IMG/VR virus record: IMGVR_UViG_3300005512_000093
Span: 1 to 40,793 of that record
DNA length: 40,793 nt
DNA from: a virus
Taxonomy: Duplodnaviria; Caudoviricetes
Reading direction: 5' to 3' (one strand)
Shown here: one piece after another, positions 6,897-30,648 of the stretch
Layout of the letters: the number at the start of each line of letters is the position of its first letter
Position numbering within the stretch: the first letter of the stretch is position 1
The notes under the pieces: generated by a model
Seen by the model: the letters and a program-made list of their open reading frames with translations, nothing else
What the model was told of the DNA's origin: nothing
Databases searched by the model: none
Program-made: the position numbers and the translations under genes

Positions 6897-6903
6897 TTTT
6901 GGA

Positions 6904-6928
6904 AAGCCTACGGGCGGCTTAATGCCCG
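6904..6928 (+). promoter_or_regulatory. Candidate H-type pseudoknot in scaffold mRNA leader
   Basis: AAGCC-TA-CGGGC-GGCTT-AAT-GCCCG: stem 1 AAGCC/GGCTT and stem 2 CGGGC/GCCCG, interleaved. Confidence 0.55.
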
Positions 6929-6960
6929 GCACAATATCCGCAACTAACGCGCAATGACAC

Positions 6961-12609: not shown

Positions 12610-12908
12610 GTTATGGTGTAGAAATTTTTAATGAATTGGGAGTGAAGGTTCTTACATCAGACGGTAGATACGGTCGCTTGGTGTATACGGCTGCTGTTGC
12701 AAACTCCGGGGGCATAACGCTTCCCGCTTTGGAAGGAAAACTTAGTTATCAGTGGGTTCAAGATAATGGTGCGATTGGGATTGAATATACAGTAAGATAT
12801 GAAAGTTCCGGCATCAGAGAGTCTACGATATCACGATCAGGTAATACTATTACTTGGTACAGGAATAGCAATGTCACCGGAATTCTATTTGTCTACATTT
12901 ACTCATGA
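12606..12908 (+). CDS. Small tail-tip protein (AT-rich module)
   Basis: MSYGVEIFNELG start; ATGA-coupled to both neighbours. Confidence 0.65.
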   Translation: MSYGVEIFNELGVKVLTSDGRYGRLVYTAAVANSGGITLPALEGKLSYQWVQDNGAIGIEYTVRYESSGIRESTISRSGNTITWYRNSNVTGILFVYIYS

Positions 12909-13624
12909 GTTACGGAATAAAAATACATAATGAGAATGGTGATGTTCAGGTTGATGGGGAATATTCAAATTATATGTTGACGGGTACAGGGACGGTTACA
13001 CCTTTTTATAGTGATGCGTACCACGACGCAATGTTCTCATTTCCTGATTATGGGGATATCCCAATTATTGGTATAAAGCCTACCAGTAAGGGTGCAGCAA
13101 TTGCTACAACAAACTCAACTACCAGTGCCTTTTGTATTTCAAGTTCGAGCAACTACAACCTTGACTGCGCAAGGAATTTTTATACAACTCCTATCACGTA
13201 TGCAATTTTTAATAAAGCAAAACCAATCCCTTTGTCCGGAAAGTATGGGATCGCTATTTATAATTCAAGCGGGGATATTGTATTTGATAGTGAGCGCAAA
13301 TGGATGCGGATAATAAGTTCCAATACAGTACGATTGTATAGAGCACCAGTTTACGGCCCAACATCTGCCGTTTTAAATGTTGTGAATGCTGATGCAAACT
13401 ATTTTGCAATATCCCCAAACCTTGTAGGAATACTGTTTGAAAGACCTTCTTACGGGTTGTCGGCAATTACGCCATATAGGGTAATGATCTCTAAAAAAAA
13501 CTCAACGCAAATCGGCGTTTATTTTGGAGGCACATTTAGATCCCGATGTGATGGTGAGGGGCAAAATTATTACGTGGGTCATAAATACGGTGACATAACT
13601 GTTATTGAATTGAATTATACCTGA
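12905..13624 (+). CDS. Tail-tip / receptor-binding candidate (AT-rich module)
   Basis: Internally duplicated motif MSYGIKIHNENG / YGIAIYNSSGDIVFDS; rich in beta-strand-type residues. Confidence 0.65.
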   Translation: MSYGIKIHNENGDVQVDGEYSNYMLTGTGTVTPFYSDAYHDAMFSFPDYGDIPIIGIKPTSKGAAIATTNSTTSAFCISSSSNYNLDCARNFYTTPITYAIFNKAKPIPLSGKYGIAIYNSSGDIVFDSERKWMRIISSNTVRLYRAPVYGPTSAVLNVVNADANYFAISPNLVGILFERPSYGLSAITPYRVMISKKNSTQIGVYFGGTFRSRCDGEGQNYYVGHKYGDITVIELNYT

Positions 13625-13629
13625 TATTC

Positions 13630-14079
13630 ATGAGCGAAGATTTAACTCAATTCAGCCAGATATCATCATCCATGCAGCGCGAGAAGATTCTAGCATTCGA
13701 GGCTGAGGCCCGCAAGCTCCCACAGATCGAGATACCGGTTCGGCACTACTTCTCGAAGGGACTGTATGCCAGGGAAATAACCATTCCTGCCGGCGCAATC
13801 GTGACCGGGAAGATCCACTTGTTCGAGCACCTGAACATCATATCCTCGGGCATCGTCCGGATCGTCACAGAGGATTTCAACGAGGTTGTCGAAGCACCAA
13901 GAACACTGGTCGCCATGCCTGGCGTGAAGAAGGTTCTTTATGCCATAACAACAACTGTTTTTACTACAGTTCACGCGACAGATATTACGGATATCGATGA
14001 AATCGATCGGGTATTCGTTACCGAAGATTACGACGATCTTAAACTTGAAGGGCAAAAACCATGTCATTTGTTGCAGTAG
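13630..14079 (+). CDS. Cupin-like phage protein preceding the ejection genes
   Basis: HYFSKGLYAREITIPAGAIVTGKIH...H and TVHAT His pattern. Confidence 0.7.
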   Translation: MSEDLTQFSQISSSMQREKILAFEAEARKLPQIEIPVRHYFSKGLYAREITIPAGAIVTGKIHLFEHLNIISSGIVRIVTEDFNEVVEAPRTLVAMPGVKKVLYAITTTVFTTVHATDITDIDEIDRVFVTEDYDDLKLEGQKPCHLLQ

Positions 14080-14879
14080 CTATCGGGTCCGCAGTGGTTG
14101 GTGCCGGAGCATCGATTTACGGGGCCAGTCAGTCGTCGAAAGCCGCGTCCGCCGCAGCCGCGGCGCAGGTGCAGGCTAATAAGGACAATATTGAGTTCCA
14201 GAAGTGGCTGTATACTGACACCAAGGCGCAGTATGAGCCATGGTACAATGCCGGCACACAGGCGCTCACGCAGATGCAGAAGGGTATCGCTGACGGGTCC
14301 TTCGATATCGGGACATTCATGGCGTCTGACGTCTACGATCCGGGGATGTTTAAGTTTGATTCCAGTAAAGTCCAGATCGACCCCGGATACTCGTTTCGGT
14401 TAAACGAAGGCATCAACGCTCTTGACCGAAGTGCATCATCAAGAGGGATGGTGCAGTCTGGGGCGCAGCAGAAAGCGATCAGTCAGTACGGACAGGACCT
14501 TTCCAGCCAGGAGTACGGAGCAGCCTACGACCGAGCATACCAAAACCAATTGACCGAATACAATTCTGGCGTTGATCGGTATAGCCGAGAGTACAACGCT
14601 AAGCGTGACACCTATAATTCGAGTGTCGCCGACAAGCAGAACAGTTACAACATGCTGAACAACATGTCCTCAGGTGGCCAGAGCGCAGTATCTGGAACGC
14701 AGAGCGCCGCAAACAACCTCAGTTCGCAGGTCGGAGCCTCGACGATCAATACTGGCAACGCGATTGCGAACGGAGCCTTGAACAGCGCAGCCGCATGGAA
14801 CACCGGAATTACTGGCGCTGCTACTGCGGTCAATCAGGGCGCACAGAACTACCTTCTCGCAAACTACCTGAAAAAGTAA
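14061..14879 (+). CDS. DNA transfer / pilot ejection protein (P22 gp7-like)
   Basis: Hydrophobic Gly/Ala N-terminus; DPGYSFRLNEGINALDRSASSRG...SGAQQKAISQYGQ. Confidence 0.8.
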   Translation: MSFVAVAIGSAVVGAGASIYGASQSSKAASAAAAAQVQANKDNIEFQKWLYTDTKAQYEPWYNAGTQALTQMQKGIADGSFDIGTFMASDVYDPGMFKFDSSKVQIDPGYSFRLNEGINALDRSASSRGMVQSGAQQKAISQYGQDLSSQEYGAAYDRAYQNQLTEYNSGVDRYSREYNAKRDTYNSSVADKQNSYNMLNNMSSGGQSAVSGTQSAANNLSSQVGASTINTGNAIANGALNSAAAWNTGITGAATAVNQGAQNYLLANYLKK

Positions 14880-14881: not shown

Positions 14882-15772
14882 ATGGCAGCCAATCAGTTCG
14901 GAGTTGATCTTGGGGCCGCGTTCGCGCAGGCCGAGCAGATAAAGAAAGCGCAGGCGGACCGGCAGTTGTCGGAGCGCAAGAACGCGCTTGCTCAAAAGAG
15001 GGCCGACTACGCGGCAAATCCGCAGGACGAGTCACTTCGATCACAGCTGCTTATTGAGGATCCCGAGGGCATGAGAGCTACCGCCGAGGCGATCGGGAAG
15101 ATGGACGAAAACGACCGTAAAAGGACTGAGCTGGCGTCACTCAATCTTGCTCGATACGCGAAGGCTGCTATGGATAGTCAGGACCCAGCAGCGACGTGGG
15201 CGCAGACCAGGGAGTCGGCGCCGGCTGAGATACAGGCAAAGATGGGCGAGTACAGCCCGATCAAGGCCAAGCAGATGTTCTACAACAGCATGACAATCAG
15301 TGAGCTTACCAAGAACCCAGACGTGGTGAAGGCTGGCGGATACGATCAGGTGTACCAGCATGGCGAGGCTATCGGAAAGAAGACTCCGAGCGAGAGCATG
15401 CTAAAGATGAAGAACGACAACGAGCAGAGAGAGTTGGACCGGCAGAACACAAGAGGTAACGCGCTTATCAGGTCAAACGGTGGCGGCGGAAGCGGGAAGG
15501 TAAGTGCGGCGATGCTTGGAGAGCTTCGCCGGCTATCGGAAAATGTTGTTGGCGGCATACAGGTGACTGACCAGGATACAGGGAAAAGCACGGTCAGTAA
15601 GGGAAGGGCAGATCAGGCAAGTTGGGTGGCAGCGCGAGCTGAGAGGTATGTTGGTCAGGGAGTGCCGTTATTCCAGGCGGTAAACAGGGCAAAGAAGGAT
15701 ATGATGAATGCTCTTGAGCGAGAAGGAAAGACAGGGGCAGCGGAGCGCCCGAGCGCGAAAGGCATTTTCTAA
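14882..15772 (+). CDS. Ejection protein (gp20 position)
   Basis: Helical Ala/Gln-rich ORF between the pilot protein and the giant protein; ATG 3 nt after the upstream stop. Confidence 0.65.
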   Translation: MAANQFGVDLGAAFAQAEQIKKAQADRQLSERKNALAQKRADYAANPQDESLRSQLLIEDPEGMRATAEAIGKMDENDRKRTELASLNLARYAKAAMDSQDPAATWAQTRESAPAEIQAKMGEYSPIKAKQMFYNSMTISELTKNPDVVKAGGYDQVYQHGEAIGKKTPSESMLKMKNDNEQRELDRQNTRGNALIRSNGGGGSGKVSAAMLGELRRLSENVVGGIQVTDQDTGKSTVSKGRADQASWVAARAERYVGQGVPLFQAVNRAKKDMMNALEREGKTGAAERPSAKGIF

Positions 15773-15794
15773 CCACAAACACATCCATATCGAA

Positions 15795-18700
15795 ATGGCT
15801 CAGACCACTTCCGACCGGCTCTACGATTTCCTTGTCAAGAACGTTGATGATGTGCCGGATCGGCAGTCGTTCAATGCGTCCATGCAGGACAAGGGAAAGC
15901 GCGAGCAGCTTCACTCGTTCATGCAGCAGCATTTCGACGACATCCCTGACTTCGAGAAATTCGATACCTCCCTCGGGTCAAGGAATCGGACCATTCCAGA
16001 GAAGGTAGTTGACACGGCCAGCTCCGTTGGTGACTGGGGTCAGGGTGCCGCCGGAGGCGCAGTCAGTTCCGTCAAGAACCTTCCCAACACAGTCCGCAAG
16101 GGCTACGCCCAGGGCAAGTTCGCCACAGCCATCAACGAGGCAAATCCGAATCCCGACCAGGTATCGCAGGCTTACGCTGAGACGCAGCGCCTCAATACCG
16201 AACTCCCGAAAACGGACTCAGCCAAGATGCTTGAATCCGGAATGTCATCGTGGGACGTGTTCTCCAGAAACCCCGTTGGGTTCATTGTTGATGTTGGCGC
16301 TGAGTCCATAGCCGGCATGGCACCGGAAGCCATCAAGAGTGCGCCCGGAATTGTCGCAGGCAGTATGGCTACCGGGGCCGCAGCGGGAGCAGTCGGACTT
16401 GGTGCTCCAACAGGAGGTCTCGGAACCGCACCCGGTGCCGCGGGTGGTGCAGTTATTGGTGCTGAAGCATCCGTTCCTCTTATCGCCTACAATGCCTCGG
16501 CTGTGCAGAAGCAGGCAGAACTTTTCGTTCAGGAGCTGGCGTCACGCGGCGTCAACATGAATGATCCTAACGCCATCAAGACGGCGTTCTCGAATCCATC
16601 TCTCATCAGGGAGATCAAGGCGAAGGTCGCCCTCCCTTCATCGATCACCGGGTTTTTTGACGGCCTGTCGGCATTGGCTGGCGGCAGTATAGAGAGCGCC
16701 GTGAGCAGTGCTGCAGCTCGTCGCGGTGCCGGCAAGGCCGCAAGCCGGGCAGCCGGAGAGGTTGCTGACTTTGGGTTTCAGGCCAGCGCAGGCATGGCTG
16801 GCGAGGGTGGCGCACAGGTCGCTTACTCCGGGAAGATCACCAGCCCTGACGATATTATTGCTGAAGGTCTTGCTGAGACACCTGTTCTTGGTATGGCGTC
16901 GAGGGTAGCCAAGAAGGTGGCTTCGGGCGCAGCGCAGGGCACTGTATCTATGGCGGAGCGAGTGCAGCAGAAGCTCGCTGAGCGCAATGCCGCCCAAGGA
17001 CTGCAGTTTGGGGTGGCGCAGTCTGGCGTACCAGTTCAGCCGCAGGCGGTTATTGAGCAGCAACCGGCCGCAGTTACCACTCAGCCGCCGATCCAGCAGA
17101 AGCAGGCCAAGCCGGAACCGCAGGGCGTTGTGGCTCCCCCGCAAGTCACAACGCCGGTTGTGGCTCCTGATCCCATTGTTTCCGATACACAACCCGAGCC
17201 GACGACCGTCGAGCCGCAGGTGCCGCAAGGCGCAACTCCTGATCCAGTCCAGCCGGCGCAAACGCTCAAGGCTGAACCTGTTGCTCCACTGGTTCCGCAG
17301 GAGCCCGCCAAGCCCTCAGAGAGGCCGCAAGAGTCAGAAAACGGCTTCGCGTCATGGTGGGAGGGGATGAACGCCAAAGAGCAGGAGCAGGCGTTCCAGG
17401 CTGTAGGAGAGATCGGGACCGGAGGTGTTGCAACCAAGGCGAGCGATCTTCCAATCAATGGAATAACCAAAAAGATCGAGGGTTTGCATGATCAGGGATG
17501 GAGCCCCGCCAAGCAGCCAGAACCAGAGCAGGACGCCGTAACTCCCCCGAAGGCGAGCATTGCCCCGTCTCAGCAGGATGATGCTCCACAGCAGGCTAAG
17601 AAGGAACCGTGGGAAACAAGATCTCAGGACTGGTTTGACTACAAATTCGGGCAGTTAAGCAAAAAGGAGCAGGCGCAAGTTCTTGGCGGCGAAGAAGGTG
17701 TCGTTACCGTTGAACAATTAAGAGCGCAAACTGATGCAGAGCATCGTCAGGCTGTTGAGCGAGCACTCAGCGAAGGCAAGCATGTCCCACAGGAAGTGAT
17801 TGATGAGGACCCGTCGCTGAAGAAGCAGGCCGTGTTTGTCAAGGCGAAGCAGAAGAAGCTGCAGCAGAAGAAGGACGAACAGGCGCGAGACAAGAACGGG
17901 CACAGGATGCGCGACTGGTCTGAAACCAAGATTCCGAATCCCGACGAGACTGGTATTGACGCCGATGATGATGGCGGAAAGACGAAGCGAGATTTCCTCA
18001 GCGATGCAAGCAGGTACGCGAAGACTGTTGCCGATCTTCTCGCAGAGCGAGGCTTTGCTCCTGGGCTTGATCGAAATGGGAAGAAGAGCAAGTCCGTTCA
18101 CATCAATGAAGCCGGGCCCGCTTCGTCCGGCGACGTTTCCGTGACCGTTTACCATGAGGATGGACGCGGTATACACATGAACATCGGCACCACGTTGGCC
18201 GGGCCGAAGGGTGGTATTTCCATCATGGCCAGGGCGGCGCACAAGACCGACGATCCTTTCGGGGCCCGAAGCCAGAACAAATGGCTGCCGGTGGCTCTTC
18301 CTGCGGGCAAGATGGCGGATATGCTTGAGGAACTGTCCGGAACCCGAAAGCCTGCCGTTCCGCAGCAGGAGCCGAAGGAGGGCACCGGGGAAGTTGGCTC
18401 CAAATCGGAACCGACCACAGGGCAGAAACCGCATCCGTCAGCAACCGAAAGGAAGAGGCCTATCGAAGAGAAGCTCGTAGAGAAGCTGATCGACGGCGGC
18501 TTCTCCAGCATCACGGAGGCCCGGAAGTGGTACGAGACTGAAACTGGAAAGAAGATCGAGCCCGGATCGATAGAGGCCAAGGCGTTCGATGAGATGGTCG
18601 AGATTGCATCGGTGCAGGCGGCCAGGCAGCTTGTCGCCGACAACGATTTCTCCGGTGCTTACGACAAGCTTGTGGAGCTGTACAAAAATATGCCTCGCCT

Positions 18701-21700
18701 TGGCGTTAGAACATCGGAGTCCGTCGCGCAGCAAGCCTATTCGACACCGCTCCCTCTCGCCTATGCCGCGAGCCGTCTGGCTGGTATCGGAAGCCTGACT
18801 AAAGCATACGAGCCGACAGCAGGGAATGGTGTGCTGCTCATCGAGGCGTCTCCGAAGAACGCTGTGGTTAACGAGCTGAACGATTACCGGGCAAAGGCAC
18901 TTCAGGATCAGGGGTTCAAGGTCACAAAAAACGACGCATCAGAATATGTTACTGATGAGAAGGTTGACGTGGTGATTGCAAACCCGCCGTTTGGCAGGAT
19001 CAAGGATGATGACGGCCGCGTGCGTGAGTTTGAGGTCTCGGATGTGTACAGCACCAAGGAGATTGACCACGCTATCGCACTGAAGGCGCTGGACGCCATG
19101 AACGATGACGGAAAAGCGGTACTGATTCTTGGGGCCCCGAAGTCGGAGAATAAGGAGGCATTGTCCGAAGGGTACAACAGCAAGGCAAAGCGGGAGTTCT
19201 ACCTGTGGCTGCACCAGCACTACAATGTAGTTGATCACTTCATTATTTCTGGCGATCTTTATCAGAAGCAGGGAGCAGGTTGGCCCGTCGATGTCATCGC
19301 GATCAACGGCAGAGGGAAGTCTGAGATGGTTGTCCCGGCAGCGAACGTTCCGGAGATGATCAGCGATTGGGAAACCTTAAAAGAGAGGGTCAATGACCAT
19401 GCAGAAAACAACACATTTGGAACGGCTGGCGGAAGAGTACAGGGACAGGGCGGTGTTCGTTCTGCAAAAAGCAACTCCGGCCGAGAGAGCGGACACTCTG
19501 CGATGGATGGAGGAAAAGCTTCTGGACCAGGGGATCGACGTGGGGAATCTCAGCGAATCGAACCTATCGAAATCAATGAGCGCCCTGTTTCTCAATCCAC
19601 TAATACTGCACGGGAGACTGTCGAGCCAGCAGATAAAAAACCCGGAACAGATCAAAGAGCCAAGCGACCTACTGGAAGTGCTCGGAGTGTAAAACAAGGA
19701 AAGAGCCAGGTCGCCTACAAGCCTGCGAGCAAATCGAAAGCTGTCGGGACACTTCTGCCGATCAATATGGCCGATGCTGTTTCGTCGGCGCTCGACGATG
19801 TTTCGAACACCTACGGCGACATCGATACATGGGTGGCCTCTGAACTTGGGTACAAGAAGAGCGAACTTTCGAAATACCTCTCCGCAGAGCAGATCGACGC
19901 CATTGCTCTGGCAATCAACAACATCAAGAAGGGTGCGGGGTTCATCATCGGAGATCAGACTGGCGTCGGCAAAGGACGCTTTGTCGCCTCGGTTATTTGG
20001 TGGTCGATCAAGAACGGACACGTCCCTCTGTTTGTAACTGAAAAGCCCGATCTGTTTTCCGACATGTACCGTGACCTTTCCGACACCGGCATTCAGGAGA
20101 TGCTTGGGCGGGAACCAAAGATCCTCATCACCAACTCTGGACAAGACATCGATCTCGGTAACGGAAAAGCCAGGATCAAGACTGCCGACGGCAAAGCACA
20201 CGACGAAGTTCTCTGGAAGTTCGCGAGGGGGGAAGCTGATTACGACATGGTGTTCACCACCTACGCGCAGATGCAGACCGTCAAGAGTGATGAGACCGCA
20301 AGACGGCACGCCATCAACATGATTGCTCCGAGAGCTGTCGTGATTCTTGACGAATCTCACAATGCAGGCGGAACAAAGAAGGCGGGGAAGGCTGAGGTCA
20401 TGGACCGCGCTCAGTTCCTGAGGCACATATCCCGGTCCGCCGTTGCCACGATATTTTCGTCAGCGACCTACGCAAAAAGGCCGGACGTGATGGACCTCTA
20501 TGCATCTACCGATCTCGGCAAGGCCGTCGGGAATGTTGACGAACTCCCTGAACTCATCTCCAGCGGCGGCGTCCCGATGCAGCAGATTATCGCCTCGATG
20601 CTTTCGGAGTCCGGACAGTACATCCGGCGCGAGCGATCTTTCGTTGGCGTCGAATACAAGACCGATCGATCGTCCGTTGATCGAAAGCAGTACGACAAGG
20701 TTTCCGAGATTCTCTCCCTGATCAACCGGTTCAGCGAGTACGTTGCTGCTGCAACCAAGAAGATCGGAAATGACCTGAAGGCAGAAGGCATGCTGGCTAC
20801 CGGAAGCTCTGCTACCGGAGGAGCGGGAGCCGAATCGACCAACTTCACGTCGGTCATGCACAACGTCATAAATCAGATGCTGTTGTCGCTCAAGGCGGAT
20901 CATGCCGCGCAGCTCGCCATCGAGGCGATTAAGGCGGGAGAGAAACCGGTAATTACTGTGGCCGGAACACTTGAATCATTCCACAAGGAAGTCATCGAGG
21001 GTCTTGGTCTGAATGACGGAGACAAAATCAATCTCGGGTTTGGGGATCTCCTACTCCGTTACCTGGACAAATCCAGATGGATTTCGATGCGGAAACCCTT
21101 CATGAAGAAGGGAGAGGGCGCGGAGAAGAAGCGCCTTTCCGATGCAGAGCTTGGCGCAGAAGGAGTCATGCTTTCCAGAAAAATCGCAAAGATGATCAAT
21201 GACAGCGACTTCGGGAACATGCCGGTGTCGCCGATTGACTGGATTCGCTTCAGGATTTCCGAAGCCGGCCATACTGTGGCTGAGATCACCGGCAGGCAGT
21301 CCGTGTTCATGTACAGCAAGTCGGGTGACGCATACCTTGGAAAGCGCCCCCTCTCCGAGCGAGGCGTCAACGGGAATGAGCGTACCAAGACCGGGTTCAA
21401 TGATGGCGGAATCGATGCAGTCATTCTCAACCAGTCCGGTTCAACTGGTATCAGTCTGCACGCCAGCGAGAAGTTCGCCGACAAGCGGCCGCGAGTCATG
21501 ATCATCGCACAAGCGGAGTCAAATATCGACACTCACATGCAGATGCTTGGCCGCGTTCATCGGACCGGACAGGTCGTCGCCCCGAGATACGTGCAGCTCA
21601 TCGCCGATATCCCGGCAGAAATCAGGCCAGCGGCGATCCTTGCCAAGAAGATGGCCAGTCTGAACGCCAATACCACAGCCAGCACCAAGAGTCGGTTTAC

Positions 21701-24700
21701 CAGTGATGATGTCCCGGACCTAATCAACGTATACGGCGACGAGGCCGCCTACGAGCTTCTTATGGAAGAGCCGGACCTGTTACGCAAACTTGGTAGCGAT
21801 CTTATCAAGGAAGGCGACGAGACAAATGAGACGAGCGCGTTTCATGATGTTGCCAGGCGCATGACTGGGCGTATCCCAATGCTTCCCCTCAAGGAGCAGG
21901 AGCGCGTTTACGAACTCCTGATCGGAAAGTTCAACGGCATACTTGAGGACGCCAAGGCTCGCGGAGAGAATGCCCTTGAAGCCCAAACCATGCAGCTTGA
22001 CGCGGAGGTCTTGGAGTCAAAGCAGATTCAGGCGCAGACGGGAAGCAGCCCGTTTCAGGGGTCGGTGCTCATGGAGAAGGTAAGGGTGAATAACCTGAGC
22101 AAGCCGTTCACAACACAGGAGGTACTTTCTCAGGTTTCGGAATCGACCGGGATCAAGGTCGCCGGAGAACCGGTTGATGCTGTTAAGAAAATGCGTGAGG
22201 GCGCTCCGGCGGATTTTATCAAGAAGAAGATCGAGGAGTTCAAGGCGTATCGTGAGGAGTCCGTTTCCGACATCGAAGATTATGAGATCAGAAGAAAAGC
22301 CGAGGACCGCCTGGACGACATTGCGTCAAGGTGGAAGCGCCTTGCCGAATCACTCGTACCCGGTACCGCCGTAGAGCTTCAGGACGTGTTTGGCGTCATC
22401 TATAGCGGCATCGTTACCGAGGTCAAGCAGTCCGGAGACCCGAAGAACCCGCTGGCGCTTTCCACGTGGAGAATGAAGGTCGCGGTGGCCAGTTCCACAA
22501 GGCAGCTCACCATTCCATTCAGCAAGCTCTTTTCCTCAGGGATGAGTCTTGCTGAAAACACGTACTCCGTCCGCGAAATCACCAACGTTGATGGAGTTCC
22601 TGTTATCGATGCGTTTGACCGCCTGAGCGGACTCGACAAGGAAACACGGACCATGATCACTGGCAATATACCGTCAGGGTATGGCATTGCCGGAAAAGGG
22701 ACGATCATCAACTATACGACCTCAGAGGGCGATGTGAGGCGAGGGATTCTTCTCCCTCGCGGCTATAAGCTTGAAAATAAGGGAGTCTCGTTCCTTTCCG
22801 GAGCTCAGATTGTCGAGTTCTTGCGGCAAGGAGGGGTAGCAAAGTCTGCCGATAACGCCGTGAAAGGTGTTTCTGTAGGAAATGGGATGGTCAGGATTGA
22901 GGTTAAAGCCTCGAAAAAGTCCGGAGGTGATTATTTCCTCGACAAGCTACTCACCTCGATTACCGGTGTTTTTGTCAGCGTTGGTGGAGTAATGAGGGCC
23001 GAGGTGTCGGAGGCAAAGGCTGAACAGGCGTTTGACCGAATCCGGGCGCTTGGAGCTACGATCACGCCTGACGGCAAGGCTGATATCGCCAGAAAGATCG
23101 TTACCGGCGAAACTGAGGTCGCCAGCGAGGAAGAGAAAAGTGGTGTCGTAGGGTCGCCGGCCGCGTCCCCGAACAGAAAGCGCACGAAGCCACTGAGCAA
23201 GGACCGCGTATCCCAGGCGTCCGACGTGAACCCTGAGCAAGTTGTCAAGGCCATGGAGGATATTTCCGGGACTCCGATCAGGTACGGGCGAGGATGGTTC
23301 GCCCAGCGTCGTGATGCGGGCTGGTTCAACCTGAAGAATGACTTGATCCGGGTGAAGGTTGCCAATGCTATCGATACCGTGGCGCATGAGATCGGGCACT
23401 CGGTGCACGCCAAGATTGTCGGGTGGAATGTCAGGTTCCCTGCTGAGGTTAACCGAGGGCTCCTCAAGCTCGGCAAGGCCCTCTACGGAAGCCGAAAGCC
23501 GAATGGCGGGTATGCTCGGGAGGGGTTTGCCGAGTTCTTTGCCAAGAAGATTATGGGCGACGACACAGCCAAGAGCTTCCCGGCGATCGACAAGTGGTTC
23601 GAGGACGAGGTGCTTGCCAAGCATCCCGATATGGCGAAACGGTTCAAGGCGGCGCAGGATATGTACCGCCAATGGGATGAGCAGGGTGCCATCGGTCGTG
23701 TTGCGGCCATGGTCCAGAGAGTGCAGACTGGACCTATGGGAAAGCTCAAGACGGCTTACGAGGCTCTGAGCAAGCTGCTTACGAAGCGCATGTGGGTCAA
23801 TGACGCAGCGCAGCTCGAAAAGGTCGTAGACCAGCTTATGAAGGAAACTGGTGTCAGTCTTAACCCGACAGAGAACCCGGCAACCATGCGGGCGGCGCTG
23901 AAGATGAGTGCGCCCGGCACGGCACGGAGGTTCATTTACAACCATGCGCTGAACATCAAGGGCGATATTGTTGGCAAATCCCTGGTGGATTACCTCAAGC
24001 CGATCAAGGATCGCTTGGAGGACTTTACTGCCTATGCCATTGCCGCAAGAGCCATGGTGCTGCATGCACGCGGTATCAACCCAGGCATCTCCATCGAGGA
24101 CGCGGAATATACTGTCGGCCAGCTCAAATCGCCAGAGTTCGAGGATGCGCTCAAAGGCGTTACCGAGTGGTCGAACCACCTCATCGATTACGTGGTTGAG
24201 GCCGGCGGCCTGAGCCCGGACGCAGCTAAAGCAATGCGCGATCTCAACCCGATCTACGTGCCGTTCAAGAGGTTCTTCGATGAACGGTATCTGGGCGGAG
24301 CCAAGGGCGCATCGAGCAAGACACATGGGATCAAGCGCATGAAGGGGTCCGGCCGTCGTATCATGGACCCCATCGACATGATGATGCTTCAGGCAGAACA
24401 GATGATCCGGTTCGGTAACGAGCTGTTGGTTTCCAAGGCCATCATCAAGGCAACTGAGAAGATCGAAGGTGCCACAGGAAAGGGCGAGGTTGCCAGCGTC
24501 GGCTGGTTCGCCAACAAGGTGCAAGCCCCTATGGCAGCACAGTCGTTCTCGGCGGAGAGCATCCAGCGGCAGCTTGAGGAGATCGGCGCAAACCTTGAGG
24601 ACGCCGACATGAACCAGATGCTTCAGGTGTTCAGCACAGCCTATAAGCCCACAGGAAAGGATAATATTGTCGCGATCTGGCGCAACGGCAAGCGGGAGTT

Positions 24701-26243
24701 CTGGGAGGTTGATCCGGAGGTGTATCGTGTAGTCATGGAGATGGACAAAGATCACCTGCCATACTTCCTGACCGCAATGTTCGGGCCAGCAAAGCGGTTG
24801 GTGCAGCTCGGGGCTGTCGGCCTTAATGCGGCCTTTGGGGCAATCAAGAACCCGATCAGGGACACTGCCGAGCGGGCAGTTTACGGACAGGCAAAGAGTT
24901 CGCCGGTCGATACGTTCGTTCACGGTTTCTGGGAGGACTTGAAAAAGGGGGAGTCGGCTGAGTTGTGGAAGAACCTCGGTGGAGAGATCGCCACGCTCAT
25001 GGGTCAAGACAGGATTCAGGCACGCGGCTACCTCGAAGAAGGTCTTGCGGACACCACGAGCGAGAAGGCGAAGCAAATCGCTATGCACCCGATTGATGCT
25101 CTGCGGCGGCTGTTCGGCTTCTACGAATCATCTCCGAGGATTGCGGAGTTCAAGGCGGTGCTTGAAAAAGCGGAAGAAAAGTACGGTAAGGGGTCGATGG
25201 ATGCCCGCATTGAGGCGCTGCTTGCGTCGAAGGACGTGACTACGAACTTCACCAGGGGTGGGATAATCGCCACGGCGCTCAATGGAATGATACCGTTCTT
25301 CAATGCTTCAGTTCAGGGCACCAGCAAGTTCGCTCGGGCGTTCAGCGGGGCAAATGGGCAGAAGTACGCGGTCCGTGCGCTTGGACATGCAATTGCCTAC
25401 ATCACCGTCCCATCACTAATGCTGGCGTTCATCAATAAGGATGAGGACTGGTACGACGAGCTGCAGAAGTGGGAGCGCATGGCGTACTGGCATTTCTCGC
25501 TCGACGGAGGAAAGACCATCGTCCGCATTCCTAAACCATTCCAGCTCGGCTATGTGTTCGGATCGATACCGCAGGAACTGTTTGTATCGGCGTACAAGAA
25601 TCAGCCGGAGCTTGCGTCCGAGGCTTTGTGGGAAACGCTGAAAGGGTTCCTGCCGGCATCAAATCCTCTTGAGTTGCTTCCTGCTCTGGTTAAGCCATCG
25701 GTAGAGGCCTGGTCGAATTTTGACTCGTTCCGCGAAAAAAGCATCGTTCCGTTCTACGAAGAAAAGTACAAAATGCCGAAGGACCAGTACGGTCGGTACC
25801 AGACCGAGACAGCCAAGTGGATCGGAGAGATGTTGCACGTGTCGCCTCGAAAGGTTGAGCACGTCATTTCTGGCCAGACCGGAAACTACGGCATGAATGC
25901 AATCCGCCTCGCCGAATCTCTGGTCGGCATACGCAAGGAGCTTGGCCGTCAGGGCGGCGCAAACGAGATCCCTGTCATCGGAACACTGTTCTCTCGCAAC
26001 CCCTACTACAACGGCAGGTCGGTGGATAAGATGTACGAGATGAGGGACGAGCTGGCGCAGAAGAAGGGATCGAAGAGCTTGTCCGGAGAAGAGCGACACC
26101 AGCTTCACCGCCTTGAGTTCGCGGCAAAGCGGATCGGGAAGATCAGGGAGCGGATGTTCTCCGGGCAGATTGATGAGGATGAAGCCGCCAAGAGAATAAC
26201 CAGTATTGCAAGGCGGTCATTGGGAAAGCCGCCCGTAAAATAA
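15795..26243 (+). CDS. Giant polyvalent ejection protein (~3,482 aa): N6-adenine MTase + strawberry-notch-type SF2 helicase + HExxH metallopeptidase + LPD38-like C-terminus (DarB-like architecture)
   Basis: EPTAGNG (~18810) and NPPF (~18981); GDQTGVGKGR (~19950), DESH (~20349) and QMLGRVHR (~21540); HEIGH (~23385) followed by EGFAE; W..YWHF...IPKPFQLG near the C-terminus. Start chosen at the first ATG after the upstream stop. Confidence 0.85.
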   Translation: MAQTTSDRLYDFLVKNVDDVPDRQSFNASMQDKGKREQLHSFMQQHFDDIPDFEKFDTSLGSRNRTIPEKVVDTASSVGDWGQGAAGGAVSSVKNLPNTVRKGYAQGKFATAINEANPNPDQVSQAYAETQRLNTELPKTDSAKMLESGMSSWDVFSRNPVGFIVDVGAESIAGMAPEAIKSAPGIVAGSMATGAAAGAVGLGAPTGGLGTAPGAAGGAVIGAEASVPLIAYNASAVQKQAELFVQELASRGVNMNDPNAIKTAFSNPSLIREIKAKVALPSSITGFFDGLSALAGGSIESAVSSAAARRGAGKAASRAAGEVADFGFQASAGMAGEGGAQVAYSGKITSPDDIIAEGLAETPVLGMASRVAKKVASGAAQGTVSMAERVQQKLAERNAAQGLQFGVAQSGVPVQPQAVIEQQPAAVTTQPPIQQKQAKPEPQGVVAPPQVTTPVVAPDPIVSDTQPEPTTVEPQVPQGATPDPVQPAQTLKAEPVAPLVPQEPAKPSERPQESENGFASWWEGMNAKEQEQAFQAVGEIGTGGVATKASDLPINGITKKIEGLHDQGWSPAKQPEPEQDAVTPPKASIAPSQQDDAPQQAKKEPWETRSQDWFDYKFGQLSKKEQAQVLGGEEGVVTVEQLRAQTDAEHRQAVERALSEGKHVPQEVIDEDPSLKKQAVFVKAKQKKLQQKKDEQARDKNGHRMRDWSETKIPNPDETGIDADDDGGKTKRDFLSDASRYAKTVADLLAERGFAPGLDRNGKKSKSVHINEAGPASSGDVSVTVYHEDGRGIHMNIGTTLAGPKGGISIMARAAHKTDDPFGARSQNKWLPVALPAGKMADMLEELSGTRKPAVPQQEPKEGTGEVGSKSEPTTGQKPHPSATERKRPIEEKLVEKLIDGGFSSITEARKWYETETGKKIEPGSIEAKAFDEMVEIASVQAARQLVADNDFSGAYDKLVELYKNMPRLGVRTSESVAQQAYSTPLPLAYAASRLAGIGSLTKAYEPTAGNGVLLIEASPKNAVVNELNDYRAKALQDQGFKVTKNDASEYVTDEKVDVVIANPPFGRIKDDDGRVREFEVSDVYSTKEIDHAIALKALDAMNDDGKAVLILGAPKSENKEALSEGYNSKAKREFYLWLHQHYNVVDHFIISGDLYQKQGAGWPVDVIAINGRGKSEMVVPAANVPEMISDWETLKERVNDHAENNTFGTAGGRVQGQGGVRSAKSNSGRESGHSAMDGGKASGPGDRRGESQRIEPIEINERPVSQSTNTARETVEPADKKPGTDQRAKRPTGSARSVKQGKSQVAYKPASKSKAVGTLLPINMADAVSSALDDVSNTYGDIDTWVASELGYKKSELSKYLSAEQIDAIALAINNIKKGAGFIIGDQTGVGKGRFVASVIWWSIKNGHVPLFVTEKPDLFSDMYRDLSDTGIQEMLGREPKILITNSGQDIDLGNGKARIKTADGKAHDEVLWKFARGEADYDMVFTTYAQMQTVKSDETARRHAINMIAPRAVVILDESHNAGGTKKAGKAEVMDRAQFLRHISRSAVATIFSSATYAKRPDVMDLYASTDLGKAVGNVDELPELISSGGVPMQQIIASMLSESGQYIRRERSFVGVEYKTDRSSVDRKQYDKVSEILSLINRFSEYVAAATKKIGNDLKAEGMLATGSSATGGAGAESTNFTSVMHNVINQMLLSLKADHAAQLAIEAIKAGEKPVITVAGTLESFHKEVIEGLGLNDGDKINLGFGDLLLRYLDKSRWISMRKPFMKKGEGAEKKRLSDAELGAEGVMLSRKIAKMINDSDFGNMPVSPIDWIRFRISEAGHTVAEITGRQSVFMYSKSGDAYLGKRPLSERGVNGNERTKTGFNDGGIDAVILNQSGSTGISLHASEKFADKRPRVMIIAQAESNIDTHMQMLGRVHRTGQVVAPRYVQLIADIPAEIRPAAILAKKMASLNANTTASTKSRFTSDDVPDLINVYGDEAAYELLMEEPDLLRKLGSDLIKEGDETNETSAFHDVARRMTGRIPMLPLKEQERVYELLIGKFNGILEDAKARGENALEAQTMQLDAEVLESKQIQAQTGSSPFQGSVLMEKVRVNNLSKPFTTQEVLSQVSESTGIKVAGEPVDAVKKMREGAPADFIKKKIEEFKAYREESVSDIEDYEIRRKAEDRLDDIASRWKRLAESLVPGTAVELQDVFGVIYSGIVTEVKQSGDPKNPLALSTWRMKVAVASSTRQLTIPFSKLFSSGMSLAENTYSVREITNVDGVPVIDAFDRLSGLDKETRTMITGNIPSGYGIAGKGTIINYTTSEGDVRRGILLPRGYKLENKGVSFLSGAQIVEFLRQGGVAKSADNAVKGVSVGNGMVRIEVKASKKSGGDYFLDKLLTSITGVFVSVGGVMRAEVSEAKAEQAFDRIRALGATITPDGKADIARKIVTGETEVASEEEKSGVVGSPAASPNRKRTKPLSKDRVSQASDVNPEQVVKAMEDISGTPIRYGRGWFAQRRDAGWFNLKNDLIRVKVANAIDTVAHEIGHSVHAKIVGWNVRFPAEVNRGLLKLGKALYGSRKPNGGYAREGFAEFFAKKIMGDDTAKSFPAIDKWFEDEVLAKHPDMAKRFKAAQDMYRQWDEQGAIGRVAAMVQRVQTGPMGKLKTAYEALSKLLTKRMWVNDAAQLEKVVDQLMKETGVSLNPTENPATMRAALKMSAPGTARRFIYNHALNIKGDIVGKSLVDYLKPIKDRLEDFTAYAIAARAMVLHARGINPGISIEDAEYTVGQLKSPEFEDALKGVTEWSNHLIDYVVEAGGLSPDAAKAMRDLNPIYVPFKRFFDERYLGGAKGASSKTHGIKRMKGSGRRIMDPIDMMMLQAEQMIRFGNELLVSKAIIKATEKIEGATGKGEVASVGWFANKVQAPMAAQSFSAESIQRQLEEIGANLEDADMNQMLQVFSTAYKPTGKDNIVAIWRNGKREFWEVDPEVYRVVMEMDKDHLPYFLTAMFGPAKRLVQLGAVGLNAAFGAIKNPIRDTAERAVYGQAKSSPVDTFVHGFWEDLKKGESAELWKNLGGEIATLMGQDRIQARGYLEEGLADTTSEKAKQIAMHPIDALRRLFGFYESSPRIAEFKAVLEKAEEKYGKGSMDARIEALLASKDVTTNFTRGGIIATALNGMIPFFNASVQGTSKFARAFSGANGQKYAVRALGHAIAYITVPSLMLAFINKDEDWYDELQKWERMAYWHFSLDGGKTIVRIPKPFQLGYVFGSIPQELFVSAYKNQPELASEALWETLKGFLPASNPLELLPALVKPSVEAWSNFDSFREKSIVPFYEEKYKMPKDQYGRYQTETAKWIGEMLHVSPRKVEHVISGQTGNYGMNAIRLAESLVGIRKELGRQGGANEIPVIGTLFSRNPYYNGRSVDKMYEMRDELAQKKGSKSLSGEERHQLHRLEFAAKRIGKIRERMFSGQIDEDEAAKRITSIARRSLGKPPVK
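19393..19692 (+). CDS. Nested overlapping gene (+1 frame, 99 aa) inside the giant protein's linker
   Basis: SD-like AAGAGAGGG before ATG-ACC-ATG; amphipathic helical product; the host frame is low-complexity exactly over this interval. Confidence 0.65.
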   Translation: MTMQKTTHLERLAEEYRDRAVFVLQKATPAERADTLRWMEEKLLDQGIDVGNLSESNLSKSMSALFLNPLILHGRLSSQQIKNPEQIKEPSDLLEVLGV

Positions 26244-26305: not shown

Positions 26306-27631
26306 ATGGCAACACCTCTTGTTTCTCCGATCTTCTATGCGTGGCACCCGGACACCGGCTTTCCGCTTGCCGCCGGCCAGGTGTTCACCTACATTTCTGG
26401 CACGACAACTCCGAAATCCAGCTATATGGACGTCGGTGCTGTTGTTGAAAACGCCAACCCGGTAGTTCTTAATGACGCAGGGTATGCCCCGATATTTCTT
26501 GAGGGGTCGTACCGAATTGTTATCAGGGATGCTGATGGCGTGCAGCTCTATGCTTTTGATGACGTGTCAGACTTGACTCCGAAGGTTGAAAGTGAATGGG
26601 TTCTTCCGACAAACGCCACCTACCTTTCCCCTACCTCATTCCGCGTTTCTGGCGATATGACGGCGACATTTACTGCGGGCAGGGCGCTTCGCCTGGTCGA
26701 TGTCGGCGCATTTGTTGCCTATGTTGAGTCCTCCTCGTATTCCGGAGGAGCGACGACGGTCTCCTTCTATGGGTCCGGCACTATCACAGCGGCACTGTCA
26801 ATCGTTTCTGTCGGCCTTATCAGCGTCGCTCCCCTTTCAACACTGAGTACAGGGATCGCTATTTGCGGCGGACGATCAACGGCGATCCGCGGTTCTGCTC
26901 TCTACGCCGTTAATGGCGCGATTGGCGGGACGCCAGACTATCTCGACGGAATTGATGGACTGACCGGTGGGCCTACAGTGAACGGACAGCCTACGCCACT
27001 GCAAACGGGAGATCTTGGTGTTGTTGCCGATCCTGATGGCGACTCAGTTACTGTGTTCGTCATGGATGCCGAGGATGGCGGTTCAGCTGACGGCGAAGAC
27101 GTTATTGCTCCGTCACTGAATGGAGGATTGAAGCGGTGGAAGCGGAAGGAGTCCTACTTCAATGAAGCTCGCGTGATGGACAACGTCTACCCTGTCGGCA
27201 GGATTATTTCAACCTACACGTCAACCAATCCTTCAGCGTCAAGAGATTCTGGCGGGATGGGGTACCCGGGGACATGGGAGCTTTGGGGTGTAGGGAGGAC
27301 ACCGATCTGCGTTGATTCCGCTGACGAACTGCTCAGCACAGCAGGCAACACAGGCGGAAGCAAGGACGCCGTGCTTGTAGAGCACACCCACACTGCGACA
27401 TCCGAAGTGACTGACCCCGGCCACTCCCATACTTACACCAGGACGCCGCGCGCTCAGAATTGTAACAATGAGAATGACGCGACCGGGACAGGATCAGAAT
27501 ACTCATCTGACACAGGCAAAGCGTTTACCGGCATCACTGTCGCAACAGCAAATGCGGCTGTTGGTGTGTCTGGAACGAACGCAAATCTTCAACCCTATAT
27601 CTGCGAGTATCGCTGGAGGAGGACCGCCTAA
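26306..27631 (+). CDS. Tail appendage protein (virion-binding N-terminus, T4 gp10-like C-terminal domain)
   Basis: GFPLAAGQVFTYISGTTTPK...NANPVVLNDAG; YPVGRI...GTWELWGVGR...GGSKDA...HTH...HSH...NLQPYICEYRWRRTA. Confidence 0.75.
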   Translation: MATPLVSPIFYAWHPDTGFPLAAGQVFTYISGTTTPKSSYMDVGAVVENANPVVLNDAGYAPIFLEGSYRIVIRDADGVQLYAFDDVSDLTPKVESEWVLPTNATYLSPTSFRVSGDMTATFTAGRALRLVDVGAFVAYVESSSYSGGATTVSFYGSGTITAALSIVSVGLISVAPLSTLSTGIAICGGRSTAIRGSALYAVNGAIGGTPDYLDGIDGLTGGPTVNGQPTPLQTGDLGVVADPDGDSVTVFVMDAEDGGSADGEDVIAPSLNGGLKRWKRKESYFNEARVMDNVYPVGRIISTYTSTNPSASRDSGGMGYPGTWELWGVGRTPICVDSADELLSTAGNTGGSKDAVLVEHTHTATSEVTDPGHSHTYTRTPRAQNCNNENDATGTGSEYSSDTGKAFTGITVATANAAVGVSGTNANLQPYICEYRWRRTA

Positions 27632-28977
27632 TGAGTTCACGACTGGACAAGAAGCTGTCTGATTGCGATGAGATGCTCGTCGGGCAAATGTCAGGACTCG
27701 ACATTATCCCGATTGTCGATGTCAGCGAGCCGGATGATGAGAAAAAGAACAAGAAAGCCACGCTTGATGCTTTCGCTGCGCAGTTCATCGGAGACGCTTT
27801 CGCTGCACAAGACAATGCGGTTGAGGCTGCGGCTGAATCCGCTTCGAGCGCCACGAATGCAGCCGCCAGTGAAGCGGCTGCATCTGCAAGCGCATCGGCA
27901 TCACAAACATCAAGGCTTGCTTCAGAGACCGCTATGGTGGCTTCCGAGTCGGCTCGGGACGCATCGGTTGTTGCTAATAATGCGTCCGTAGCCGCAAAGC
28001 AAAGTGCTGAGACTGCAAGGGACGCGGCGCAAACTGCACAAGCAACGGCGGAAGGTGCTCGTGATGATTCCCAGGACGCCCTTGCATCCACAGTGTCCAT
28101 CTATGGCAGCACGCAGGCTGTGGCGTCGGCTGTTGCCTCTACTGAATCAAACGCCGGGCGAGCAGAAACAGCAGCTACGATAGCCGTAGGCGCTGTTGGT
28201 CTTGCCGGAATGAGTGAGGACAGTGCGCTTGCGGCTGCGGCTGAATCCGCTTCGAGCGCCACGAATGCAGCCGCCAGTGAAGCGGCTGCATCTGCAAGCG
28301 CATCGGCATCACAAACATCAAGGCTTGCTTCAGAGACCGCTATGGTGGCTTCCGAGTCGGCTCGGGACGCATCGGTTGTTGCTAATAATGCGTCCGTAGC
28401 CGCAAAGCAAAGTGCTGAGACTGCAAGGGACGCGGCGCAAACTGCACAAGCAACGGCGGAAGGTGCTCGTGATGATTCCCAGGACGCCCTTGCATCCACA
28501 GTGTCCATCTATGGCAGCACGCAGGCTGTGGCGTCGGCTGTTGCCTCTACTGAATCAAACGCCGGGCGAGCAGAAACAGCAGCTACGATAGCCGTAGGCG
28601 CTGTTGGTCTTGCCGGAATGAGTGAGGACAGTGCGCTTGCGGCTGCGAAGGCAGCGAAGGTGTCCGAAGTTTCCGCTGCATCATCTGAAGCAGCAGCAAA
28701 TGTATCGATGCAGGCCTCCGCTATTGCTCGTGACGCTTCTGTGTCTGCAAAGCAAAGTGCTGAGACTGCAAGGGACGCGGCACTCGGCTATCGTAACACT
28801 GCGTCAGATCAAGCAACCACAGCGACGCAGCAAGCAACCAGCGCGACAAACAGTGCTGCTGCTGCGGCACAATCTAAGACGGCATCAGAGGCGGCCCGCG
28901 ACGGATCACAATCTATTTACAATAACTTTTCGGCACAGGTCGATACGTTGACCAAGCTCATTTACGCCACACTTTAA
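27631..28977 (+). CDS. Ala/Ser-rich tail fibre shaft (Stf-like)
   Basis: SATNAAASEAAA / SAETARDAA repeats; directly precedes the DGR target. Confidence 0.75.
   Translation: MSSRLDKKLSDCDEMLVGQMSGLDIIPIVDVSEPDDEKKNKKATLDAFAAQFIGDAFAAQDNAVEAAAESASSATNAAASEAAASASASASQTSRLASETAMVASESARDASVVANNASVAAKQSAETARDAAQTAQATAEGARDDSQDALASTVSIYGSTQAVASAVASTESNAGRAETAATIAVGAVGLAGMSEDSALAAAAESASSATNAAASEAAASASASASQTSRLASETAMVASESARDASVVANNASVAAKQSAETARDAAQTAQATAEGARDDSQDALASTVSIYGSTQAVASAVASTESNAGRAETAATIAVGAVGLAGMSEDSALAAAKAAKVSEVSAASSEAAANVSMQASAIARDASVSAKQSAETARDAALGYRNTASDQATTATQQATSATNSAAAAAQSKTASEAARDGSQSIYNNFSAQVDTLTKLIYATL
27825..28640 (+). repeat. 408-bp (136-aa) tandem duplication, two apparently identical copies
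   Basis: Copies at 27825-28232 and 28233-28640; no differences seen by eye. Confidence 0.9.
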
Positions 28978-30363: not shown

Positions 30364-30368
30364 CAGCC
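30354..30368 (+). promoter_or_regulatory. DGR target-recognition hairpin/cruciform
   Basis: GGCTGC-GTA-GCAGCC immediately 3' of VR, overlapping the stop codon; absent after TR. Confidence 0.75.
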
Positions 30369-30420
30369 CGTATGCGTAGGCATTTTTTTCTGTTCTTTCT
30401 GTGGGTGGTTTGGGTCGTTT

Positions 30421-30548
30421 GTGGCCTTCGGGTTCCTCTGGTAGGCAGTAATGCGAATAACGAGGCGAATGCGGGTCCGTTCTATTGGAATGCGAATAAT
30501 GCGGCTTCGAATACGAATGCGAATATCGGCGGGCAGCTCTGCTTTAAG
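30421..30548 (+). ncRNA. DGR template repeat (TR)
   Basis: Intergenic, AAT/AAC-rich copy of VR with 29 adenines, 100 nt upstream of the RT. Confidence 0.97.
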
Positions 30549-30648
30549 TAAGTACCCCCGAACCACCTTGCCTCTCGGCAAAACACAAGACGACCGACCA
30601 CTGTGCTGGTAAGGTGAAACTGAAAGCTCAACGGTCAAAAAGCAGCTT

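What the first reader, a model, noticed from the sequence alone, without database searches (positions are those of the whole stretch)
19393..19692. Hidden gene nested in the +1 frame, exactly filling the MTase-helicase linker of the giant protein
Seen: the ORF MTMQKTTHLERLAEEYRDRAVFVLQKATPAERADTLRWMEEKLLDQGIDVG...PSDLLEVLGV has an SD-like AAGAGAGGG and reads like a folded helical protein. It starts where the MTase domain ends (ISDWETLKERVND) and stops ~15 nt before the helicase module begins (QVAYKPASK). Over the same interval the giant frame is Gly/Arg/Ser-rich, like a shadow frame. Inference: a dual-coding module, either a small gene absorbed when the MTase and helicase fused or an overprinted partner (inhibitor, chaperone or antitoxin) that keeps the enzyme off in the producer cell and is left behind on injection. 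Gene callers would miss it. This is my best candidate for an undescribed system.
Basis: partly seen in the sequence, partly recalled or inferred. Interest (0 to 1): 0.85.

Follow-up and report, generated by a model that had tools for sequence, protein, structure and literature searches.

The report
Hidden gene inside giant phage enzyme
A small gene is written in a second reading frame inside the spacer of a giant phage DNA-methylase/helicase gene and is kept under selection in most related genes examined; it likely makes a folded protein that would bind and restrain the giant enzyme until that enzyme, likely carried in the phage particle, reaches a new host cell.

Summary
Confirmed. ORF 19393-19692 (99 aa) lies in the +1 frame of a 3511-aa methyltransferase/Strawberry-notch-helicase gene of a P22-like temperate podophage. 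It spans the predicted disordered linker. The window alone is only suggestive; homologues decide it. 140 of 143 non-redundant homologous loci carry an 86-233-aa +1 ORF starting at the methyltransferase end, and 11 of 13 divergent loci set aside lack one. The ribosome-binding site exceeds what the giant's protein sequence requires (78 of 88). In 25 of 25 close pairs selection acts on +1 (dN/dS 0.32) rather than the giant frame (1.37). A profile of 47 other nested proteins picks this ORF out of 570 six-frame segments (E 1e-6). It folds confidently (pLDDT 90), all-helical, with no family or fold match. Translation is not shown. Function is inferred: likely a dedicated binding partner (inhibitor or chaperone) of the giant; the complex predictor was unavailable and co-evolution names no partner. 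A free-standing paralogue and occasional helicase restarts suggest the giant arose by read-through across an older small gene. This scan found the same arrangement before on other DNA (13 notes, at least 12 genomes); nine literature searches listed no description.

The parts
15708..26243 (+). Giant polyvalent protein gene (3511 aa), host frame of the nested gene; lies right after ejection-protein genes in a P22-like morphogenesis operon
18675..19409 (+). N6-adenine (gamma-class, NPPF) methyltransferase domain of the giant, about aa 990-1234; its last helix holds the SD and ATG of the nested gene
19381..19389 (+). Shine-Dalgarno-like site AAGAGAGGG
19393..19692 (+). Nested +1-frame gene, 99 aa (97 aa if started at the ATG at 19399); predicted all-alpha, mildly acidic, new family
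19413..19688 (+). Giant-frame linker (aa 1236-1327): predicted disordered, G/R/S-rich, not under purifying selection in homologues
19707..21971 (+). Strawberry-notch-type SF2 (SWI2/SNF2-like) ATPase of the giant, from QVAY to the end of Helicase_C_4
25443..25934 (+). LPD38 domain of the giant
14061..14879 (+). DNA-ejection protein gene two genes upstream (context for virion packaging of the giant)
   Evidence: phrog_598, E 3e-32

Best explanation
A conserved 99-codon gene lies in the +1 frame of the spacer of a giant methyltransferase-helicase gene; it is likely translated from its own ribosome-binding site into a protein predicted to be small and helical, which would bind the giant enzyme and keep it inactive or packaging-competent in the cell that makes it. 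SHOWN by sequence and comparison: the ORF, its fixed position, selection on its start, SD, open frame and amino-acid sequence, and the absence of such selection on the giant's frame over the same bases. INFERRED (about 0.95): it is translated as a separate protein from the same mRNA, so partner and enzyme are always made together and cannot be separated by recombination. INFERRED (about 0.6): today's layout arose when an MTase gene read through an older small gene into the helicase gene, turning the small gene's off-frame into a tether. INFERRED (about 0.6): the product is a dedicated binding partner of the giant. INFERRED (about 0.4): its effect is negative or chaperone-like, and is relieved when the giant is ejected into a new host to methylate or translocate on incoming DNA in the manner proposed for DarB-like proteins.
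For: Presence: 140 of 143 non-redundant loci (134 ATG, 3 GTG, 3 TTG; 111 of 140 start 10 or 13 nt after the MTase model end). Same-length windows elsewhere in the giants are open in +1 in 3.8% of cases (3.4 of 88 expected); synonymous recoding would leave 32 of 88 open and 37 of 88 with a start codon. SD energy -7.2 against -4.7 after recoding, stronger in 78 of 88 (Wilcoxon p 1e-13); other +1 ATGs average -1.9. dN/dS 0.32 in +1 against 1.37 in the giant frame, the reverse in both flanks (0.13), 25 of 25 disjoint pairs. Distant pairs align better in +1 in 137 of 150 sampled. Leave-out profile ranks the window ORF first of 570 segments, E 1.2e-6. A close soil strain shows 5 of 7 listed changes silent in +1 and non-silent in the giant. 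AlphaFold pLDDT 90.4, pTM 0.79; giant-frame linker pLDDT <50. Searching 301 cyanobacterial genomes with the nested profile alone matched 6; 9 of 9 loci checked lie between MTase and helicase, which points to a dedicated link. 97% of 140 members are net acidic, median -8, as would suit binding a DNA-binding enzyme. Free-standing paralogue at L104 2238-2756 (-), 30.9 bits, other frames closed. Precedents: M.EcoHK31I beta chain nested in and binding its own MTase (PMC2836561); P1 Ulx aids DarB localisation (PMC9024508, table).
Against: No translation or binding data exist here. Co-evolution does not single out a partner: rank partial correlation 0.17 with the helicase, 0.06 with the MTase, and mutual-information peaks are near the shuffled maxima. 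Related MTase-helicases exist without the family: 11 of 13 divergent loci set aside, L147, L159 and L163, and 4 of 7 plasmid records fetched, so the partner is not universally required. The window's own protein is only net -3 and diverged from the family (24 of 34 comparisons better in +1; 23% identity to its nearest relative). The nested gene also occurs on cyanobacterial plasmids that have no virion, so 'left behind at injection' cannot be the whole story. No intact MTase/small gene/helicase operon with a clear family member was found; the tree is unrooted.
Confidence: 0.42

Rival explanations
1. The nested protein is an obligatory activating or structural subunit of the methyltransferase-helicase, as the nested beta chain is for M.EcoHK31I, and travels with the giant.
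For: Direct precedent of a nested subunit in a DNA MTase gene (PMC2836561, passages). The MTase model ends after the catalytic core with a disordered linker where other gamma-class enzymes have further domains (the comparison of domain order is from my own knowledge). The start is fixed to the MTase end whatever the linker length.
Against: Homologous MTase-helicases without the family exist. Members share only about 18% median identity against 47-50% for the enzymes. No resemblance to an MTase motif or subunit was found.
Confidence: 0.22
2. The nested protein works on a host target, for example as an acidic anti-restriction or DNA-mimic protein, and is nested only for co-expression and linkage.
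For: Net acidic in 97% of 140 members; a free-standing copy exists 3 kb from the giant on one element; comS inside srfAB is a precedent for a nested gene acting elsewhere (PMC12915044, passages).
Against: All other profile hits checked lie inside the MTase-helicase linker. It is encoded in a late, morphogenesis operon. The window's copy is only net -3 and conserved acidic positions are few.
Confidence: 0.17
3. The ORF matters mainly as a translational device: its termination couples to an in-frame restart that makes a helicase-only protein.
For: Frame-0 start with SD close behind the nested stop in 11 of 88 loci; ATG overlapping the nested stop in 5 of 140 and in the Gloeobacter and Thalassospira plasmids; RefSeq annotates the Gloeobacter locus that way.
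Against: 77 of 88 loci, the window included, have no such restart; strong selection on the amino-acid sequence and a confident fold are not needed for coupling.
Confidence: 0.08
4. The +1 frame is entered by ribosomal frameshifting to give an MTase-only product with a helical tail, or left by a -1 shift to give a small-protein/helicase fusion.
For: The start sits at the MTase end; the window has one A-AAA-AAC heptamer 18 codons before the nested stop.
Against: A +1 stop lies within 5 codons upstream of the start in 51 of 88 loci and immediately before it in 13; slippery heptamers occur in 3 of 88 and in the last 30 codons only in the window; ATG/GTG/TTG interchange and a selected SD mark initiation.
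Confidence: 0.06
5. The ORF is a by-product of a low-complexity linker and is not a gene.
For: In the window alone the open frame and the SD are not beyond a recoding null; no single-sequence homologue was found.
Confidence: 0.03

Closest known systems
M.EcoHK31I beta chain
   Same: A second polypeptide encoded entirely in another frame inside a DNA methyltransferase gene.
   Different: That is a C5-cytosine MTase whose nested chain supplies motif IX and is needed for activity. Here the host is an N6-adenine MTase fused to a helicase, the nested product has no known family, and it sits in an unconstrained inter-domain linker.
Embedded spanin genes Rz/Rz1 (PMC9144972 passage; Bcep22 annotation)
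   Same: A phage gene wholly embedded out of frame in another; the two products working together is the textbook case (recalled).
   Different: Membrane lysis proteins; no sequence or fold relation; here the host gene is 35 times longer and its frame is the unconstrained one.
comS inside srfAB of Bacillus subtilis (PMC12915044, passages)
   Same: A small gene in a distinct frame inside a very large gene.
   Different: ComS acts on MecA/ClpCP, unrelated to its host protein; the present ORF is tied to one site across many phage and plasmid lineages.
Methylase-helicase dyad of large polyvalent proteins, archetype P1 DarB (PMC5512222, section 14 and passages)
   Same: The giant is a member: gamma-class adenine MTase, Strawberry-notch SWI2/SNF2 ATPase, LPD38.
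   Different: The main text has no hit for 'overlap' or 'frameshift' and 'nested' only for a hairpin; P1 darB itself shows no comparable nested ORF. The paper's supplementary files were not seen.
TnpV-like ORF nested ahead of the MTase in SNF2-type DarB-like giants (Bcep22 gp75; also earlier notes)
   Same: Small helical +1-frame ORF with strong SD in a disordered-looking linker of a methylase-helicase giant, unannotated.
   Different: Upstream of the MTase, not between MTase and helicase; no detectable similarity to this family (hhalign E 0.75).
P1 Ulx (PMC9024508, table and passages)
   Same: Small protein encoded next to darB that aids DarB localisation to the head.
   Different: A separate gene; similarity to the nested family was not tested directly, and Ulx has no Pfam family.

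Membership tests
Embedded (nested) out-of-frame gene | ORF wholly inside another gene whose own frame stays open | tested here: met
   Window; 141 of 143 loci have an intact giant frame and 140 the nested ORF
Embedded (nested) out-of-frame gene | Own start codon and ribosome-binding site under selection | tested here: met
   SD stronger than recoding null in 78 of 88; start retained where 37 of 88 expected; not significant for the window alone
Embedded (nested) out-of-frame gene | Purifying selection on the inner frame | tested here: met
   dN/dS 0.32 against 1.37, 25 of 25 pairs; 5 of 7 listed changes in a close strain
Embedded (nested) out-of-frame gene | Protein actually made | not testable with these tools
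   No RNA or proteome data for this phage
Polyvalent protein with methylase-helicase dyad (giant) | Gamma-class adenine MTase with TP and NPP(Y/F) motifs | tested here: met
   STP and NPPF in the sequence; model matches type I and gamma MTases
Polyvalent protein with methylase-helicase dyad (giant) | C-terminally fused SWI2/SNF2-type ATPase and LPD domains | tested here: met
   AAA_34, Helicase_C_4, LPD38; SNF2 structural matches
Polyvalent protein with methylase-helicase dyad (giant) | Packaged in the virion and protects DNA in cis | not testable with these tools
   Only gene context next to ejection genes
M.EcoHK31I-type split methyltransferase | C5-cytosine MTase whose nested chain carries motif IX | tested here: not met
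   Host is an N6-adenine MTase; nested protein has no MTase match
M.EcoHK31I-type split methyltransferase | Nested chain binds the host enzyme and is needed for activity | not testable with these tools
   Complex predictor not available; co-evolution inconclusive
TnpV (PF14198) | Match to the TnpV profile | tested here: not met
   0 of 136 members match at E 0.05; no similarity to the Bcep22 TnpV-like ORF
Ocr/ArdA-like DNA mimics | Strongly acidic surface and matching fold | tested here: inconclusive
   Family acidic (median -8) but window -3; not listed in fold searches, which does not exclude it
Toxin-antitoxin pair | Large product toxic unless the small one is present | not testable with these tools
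   Needs expression tests

The most novel reading that the evidence does not exclude
Giant transferred methylase-helicases carry their own off-switch inside their gene: fusion by read-through swallowed a partner gene and turned its off-frame into the tether, so enzyme and inhibitor are inseparable as DNA but separable as proteins, and transfer to a new cell switches the enzyme on. Two unrelated small helical families (this one and a TnpV-like one) would have reached the same layout in the two helicase classes, making 'disordered linkers' of polyvalent proteins a general hiding place for genes.
Probability: 0.3. Interest if true: 0.9.

Novelty: new variant of a known kind. Interest (0 to 1): 0.76.

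Why it matters
It is a widespread, ancient, almost wholly unannotated protein family with no known fold, found in phage, prophage and plasmid loci from many bacterial phyla. It is an unusually clean case of prokaryotic dual coding, in which the annotated frame is the unconstrained one. It offers a testable route to gene fusion across an intervening gene. It may supply the missing control element for DarB-like anti-restriction giants: how a DNA methylase-translocase is kept quiet in the producer and active after transfer is an open question. It also warns that low-complexity linkers in polyvalent proteins may be second genes, which matters for deletion and domain-mapping experiments.

Tried and rejected
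Single-sequence searches with the 99-aa protein found nothing. Family scans of 136 members gave only scattered weak hits in Pfam, PHROGs and NCBIfam; PADLOC none for 5 nested proteins. PDB sequence searches gave nothing credible; the RecA hit is summed repeats. Fold searches: no Foldseek match at E 0.001 in PDB or BFVD, best VIA Z 3.9 at rmsd 4.0 over 81 residues; this does not prove a new fold. ESM Atlas hits for a relative were all under 0.9. The complex predictor was not available, so binding is open. Mirror-tree signal for the helicase (Pearson partial 0.62) shrank to 0.17 with ranks, and mutual information was near the shuffled level: rejected as evidence. The +2 frame control (0 of 143 ORFs of 60 aa or more) is weak, since a +2 start needs a Cys or Trp codon in the giant; I rely instead. 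Programmed frameshifting rejected. No internal sigma-70 promoter or terminator in 18900-19800. No RNA holder listed. The 165-aa ORF between the split MTase and helicase genes of L163 scores only 5 bits against the family profile: not accepted as a homologue. The helicase tree is the quick version, unrooted, with losses clustered in plasmid-type Bacteroidota and proteobacterial rows; it gives no order of events. The second hit in L209 is part of an inverted assembly of the same locus type. Literature searches listed no paper describing this gene; most subscription papers are outside the library.

Full report
Setting. The window is a complete 40.8-kb virus record: a P22-like temperate podophage with terminase, portal, coat, head-closure and ejection genes, integrase, RecT and a reverse transcriptase. 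ORF 15708-26243 encodes 3511 aa with an N6-adenine methyltransferase (about aa 990-1234), a Strawberry-notch SF2 ATPase (AAA_34, Helicase_C_4) and LPD38. It follows the ejection-protein genes, so virion packaging is inferred, not shown.

Observation. ORF 19393-19692 is present as described. Its start lies in the last MTase helix and its stop 14 nt before QVAY. AlphaFold gives the giant's aa 1236-1327 pLDDT under 50. GC3 of the giant frame is lowest here. Among 17 out-of-frame ORFs of 60 aa or more in the giant, only this one scores better than the giant frame on a codon model, and it has the best SD. Against this, in the window alone the open frame (P 0.60) and SD (p 0.39) are not beyond a synonymous-recoding null, and the protein has no single-sequence homologue.

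Homologues. I fetched 243 loci. With the window, 226 of 244 had both MTase-end and helicase-start profile hits. 13 were set aside for partial profile coverage; 213 remained, 143 non-redundant at 90% and 91 at 70% flank identity. In 141 of 143 the giant frame is intact. 140 of 143 carry a +1 ORF of 86-233 aa starting at the MTase end (134 ATG, 3 GTG, 3 TTG); they come from 58 viral, 51 genome, 29 metagenome loci, the window and one isolated phage. Of the 13 set aside, 2 show such an ORF by eye and 11 do not. Of 7 plasmid records fetched out of 798 matched, 3 have the family and 4 do not. The nearest relative (L001, MTase 82% identical) has a 102-aa ORF with the same SD and end but 23% protein identity. 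120 giant proteins show linkers of median 108 aa.

Selection. For the 88 of 91 representatives that have the ORF, 3.4 would be open in +1 by the rate elsewhere in the same genes, 32 under synonymous recoding, and 37 would keep a start codon. The SD is stronger than the recoding expectation in 78 of 88 (p 1e-13). In 25 disjoint pairs, drawn from 124 equal-length pairs at 70-99% identity, substitutions fall at +1 codon positions 276/253/537; dN/dS is 0.32 in +1 and 1.37 in the giant frame, while both flanks give 0.13 in the giant frame. None of these pairs includes the window. For its own lineage, a soil contig shows 7 listed differences in the ORF, 5 silent in +1 and non-silent in the giant, 1 non-silent in both, 1 the reverse (the table was cut, so the list may be incomplete). 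A profile from 47 short members, window and L001 left out, ranks the window ORF first among 570 six-frame segments (E 1.2e-6); L001 scores only E 0.6, and 58 of 91 long members reach E 0.05. Distant pairs align better in +1 in 137 of 150 sampled from 595.

The protein. AlphaFold on a 48-row alignment gives pLDDT 90.4, pTM 0.79, five helices. Conservation is a hydrophobic pattern plus G47, N68-P69 and D/E92. There is a short class (about 86-113 aa) and a long class with an N-terminal extension. No family or fold match was found. A profile search of 5.8 billion proteins returned 11 called members, unnamed or hypothetical. RefSeq annotates one, WP_230844304.1 of Gloeobacter morelensis, and restarts the helicase behind it although the giant frame is open.

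How it is made. Separate initiation fits best: ATG/GTG/TTG interchange, selected SD, and a +1 stop within five codons upstream in 51 of 88 loci. Slippery heptamers occur in 3 of 88. No internal promoter was seen, so it would be read from the giant's mRNA.

Origin. The giant frame over the ORF is unconstrained and disordered, so the small gene looks older than the linker (inference). A free-standing paralogue with closed alternative frames lies on the Coleofasciculus element L104. In-frame helicase restarts follow the nested stop in 11 of 88 loci. Read-through fusion across an older gene explains all three. No intact three-gene operon with a clear member was found, split Bacteroidota versions lack the family, and the tree is unrooted, so this stays at about 0.6.

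Function. A search by the nested profile alone hit 6 of 301 cyanobacterial genomes; 9 of 9 loci checked lie in MTase-helicase linkers. With the fixed position, the acidity (97% of 140) and the precedents of M.EcoHK31I and Ulx, this makes a dedicated partner of the giant the best reading. The sign of its effect and the domain bound are unknown: the complex predictor was not available and co-evolution was inconclusive. I commit to inhibitor or chaperone (0.42), ahead of activating subunit (0.22) and independent host-directed protein (0.17). Plasmid-borne copies show that the role is not confined to virions.

What is known. PMC5512222 (section 14 and passages; supplements not seen, and they may bear on this) describes the dyad without a nested gene. 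PMC2836561 (abstract, passages), PMC12915044 (passages), PMC9144972 (passages) and PMC9024508 (passages, table) give the precedents. Nine searches listed no description. This scan had already noted the same arrangement 13 times in at least 12 other genomes and nothing in this genome; those notes are leads, not evidence, and my first reading was written before I saw them.

Side finding. Phage Bcep22 gp75, an SNF2-type DarB-like giant, has a different 107-aa +1 ORF ahead of the MTase, with a strong SD, the gene's lowest GC3 and a weak TnpV match (E 0.045); tblastn finds it in 41 Burkholderia and Ralstonia phage records, the 40 listed all under the giant's annotation (reading frames in those records not checked). 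Earlier notes report this too. P1 darB shows no comparable ORF.

Verdict. Real nested gene (about 0.95-0.97), new protein family, new variant of the embedded-gene kind, mechanism inferred. Interest 0.76.

Noticed in passing
window 28993-31692: Diversity-generating retroelement: 128-nt repeat pair (30224-30351 in the 3' end of tail gene 28993-30363, and 30421-30548; 88% identical) ahead of a reverse transcriptase gene 30649-31692.
   Followed up: partly
L256 17338-17658 (Bcep22, AY349011 52337-52660): Unannotated 107-aa TnpV-like ORF nested in +1 ahead of the MTase of gp75, strong SD, lowest GC3 of the gene; similar sequence in 41 phage records; unrelated to the family studied here.
   Followed up: partly
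L104 2238-2756 (-): Free-standing paralogue of the nested family on a Coleofasciculus element, with an ATGA overlap to its upstream gene.
   Followed up: partly
L257 3713-4162: RefSeq calls the nested ORF (WP_230844304.1) and a restarted helicase in Gloeobacter morelensis pGMOR1; no MTase CDS is listed although the giant frame is open.
   Followed up: yes
L163 about 6800-7300: Split MTase and helicase genes in a Saprospiraceae genome with a 165-aa acidic ORF between them; only 5 bits against the family profile.
   Followed up: partly
L256, gp75 aa about 3300-3500: Second GC3 dip (0.60-0.62) in the Bcep22 giant; might hide another ORF.
   Followed up: no
window 27811-28518: 300-nt direct repeat, 99% identical, spaced 408 nt, inside gene 27631-28977; a recent internal duplication in a likely tail or fibre gene.
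   Followed up: no
window 12001-14000: Low-GC stretch (0.43-0.45 against about 0.55) holding small genes including 12905-13624.
   Followed up: no
window 33733-33974: 35-nt imperfect direct repeat just upstream of the integrase gene 33977-35080; possible attachment or arm sites.
   Followed up: no
L209 4487-5998: MTase, nested ORF and helicase start lie on the opposite strand from the rest of the helicase; an inversion or assembly artefact.
   Followed up: no
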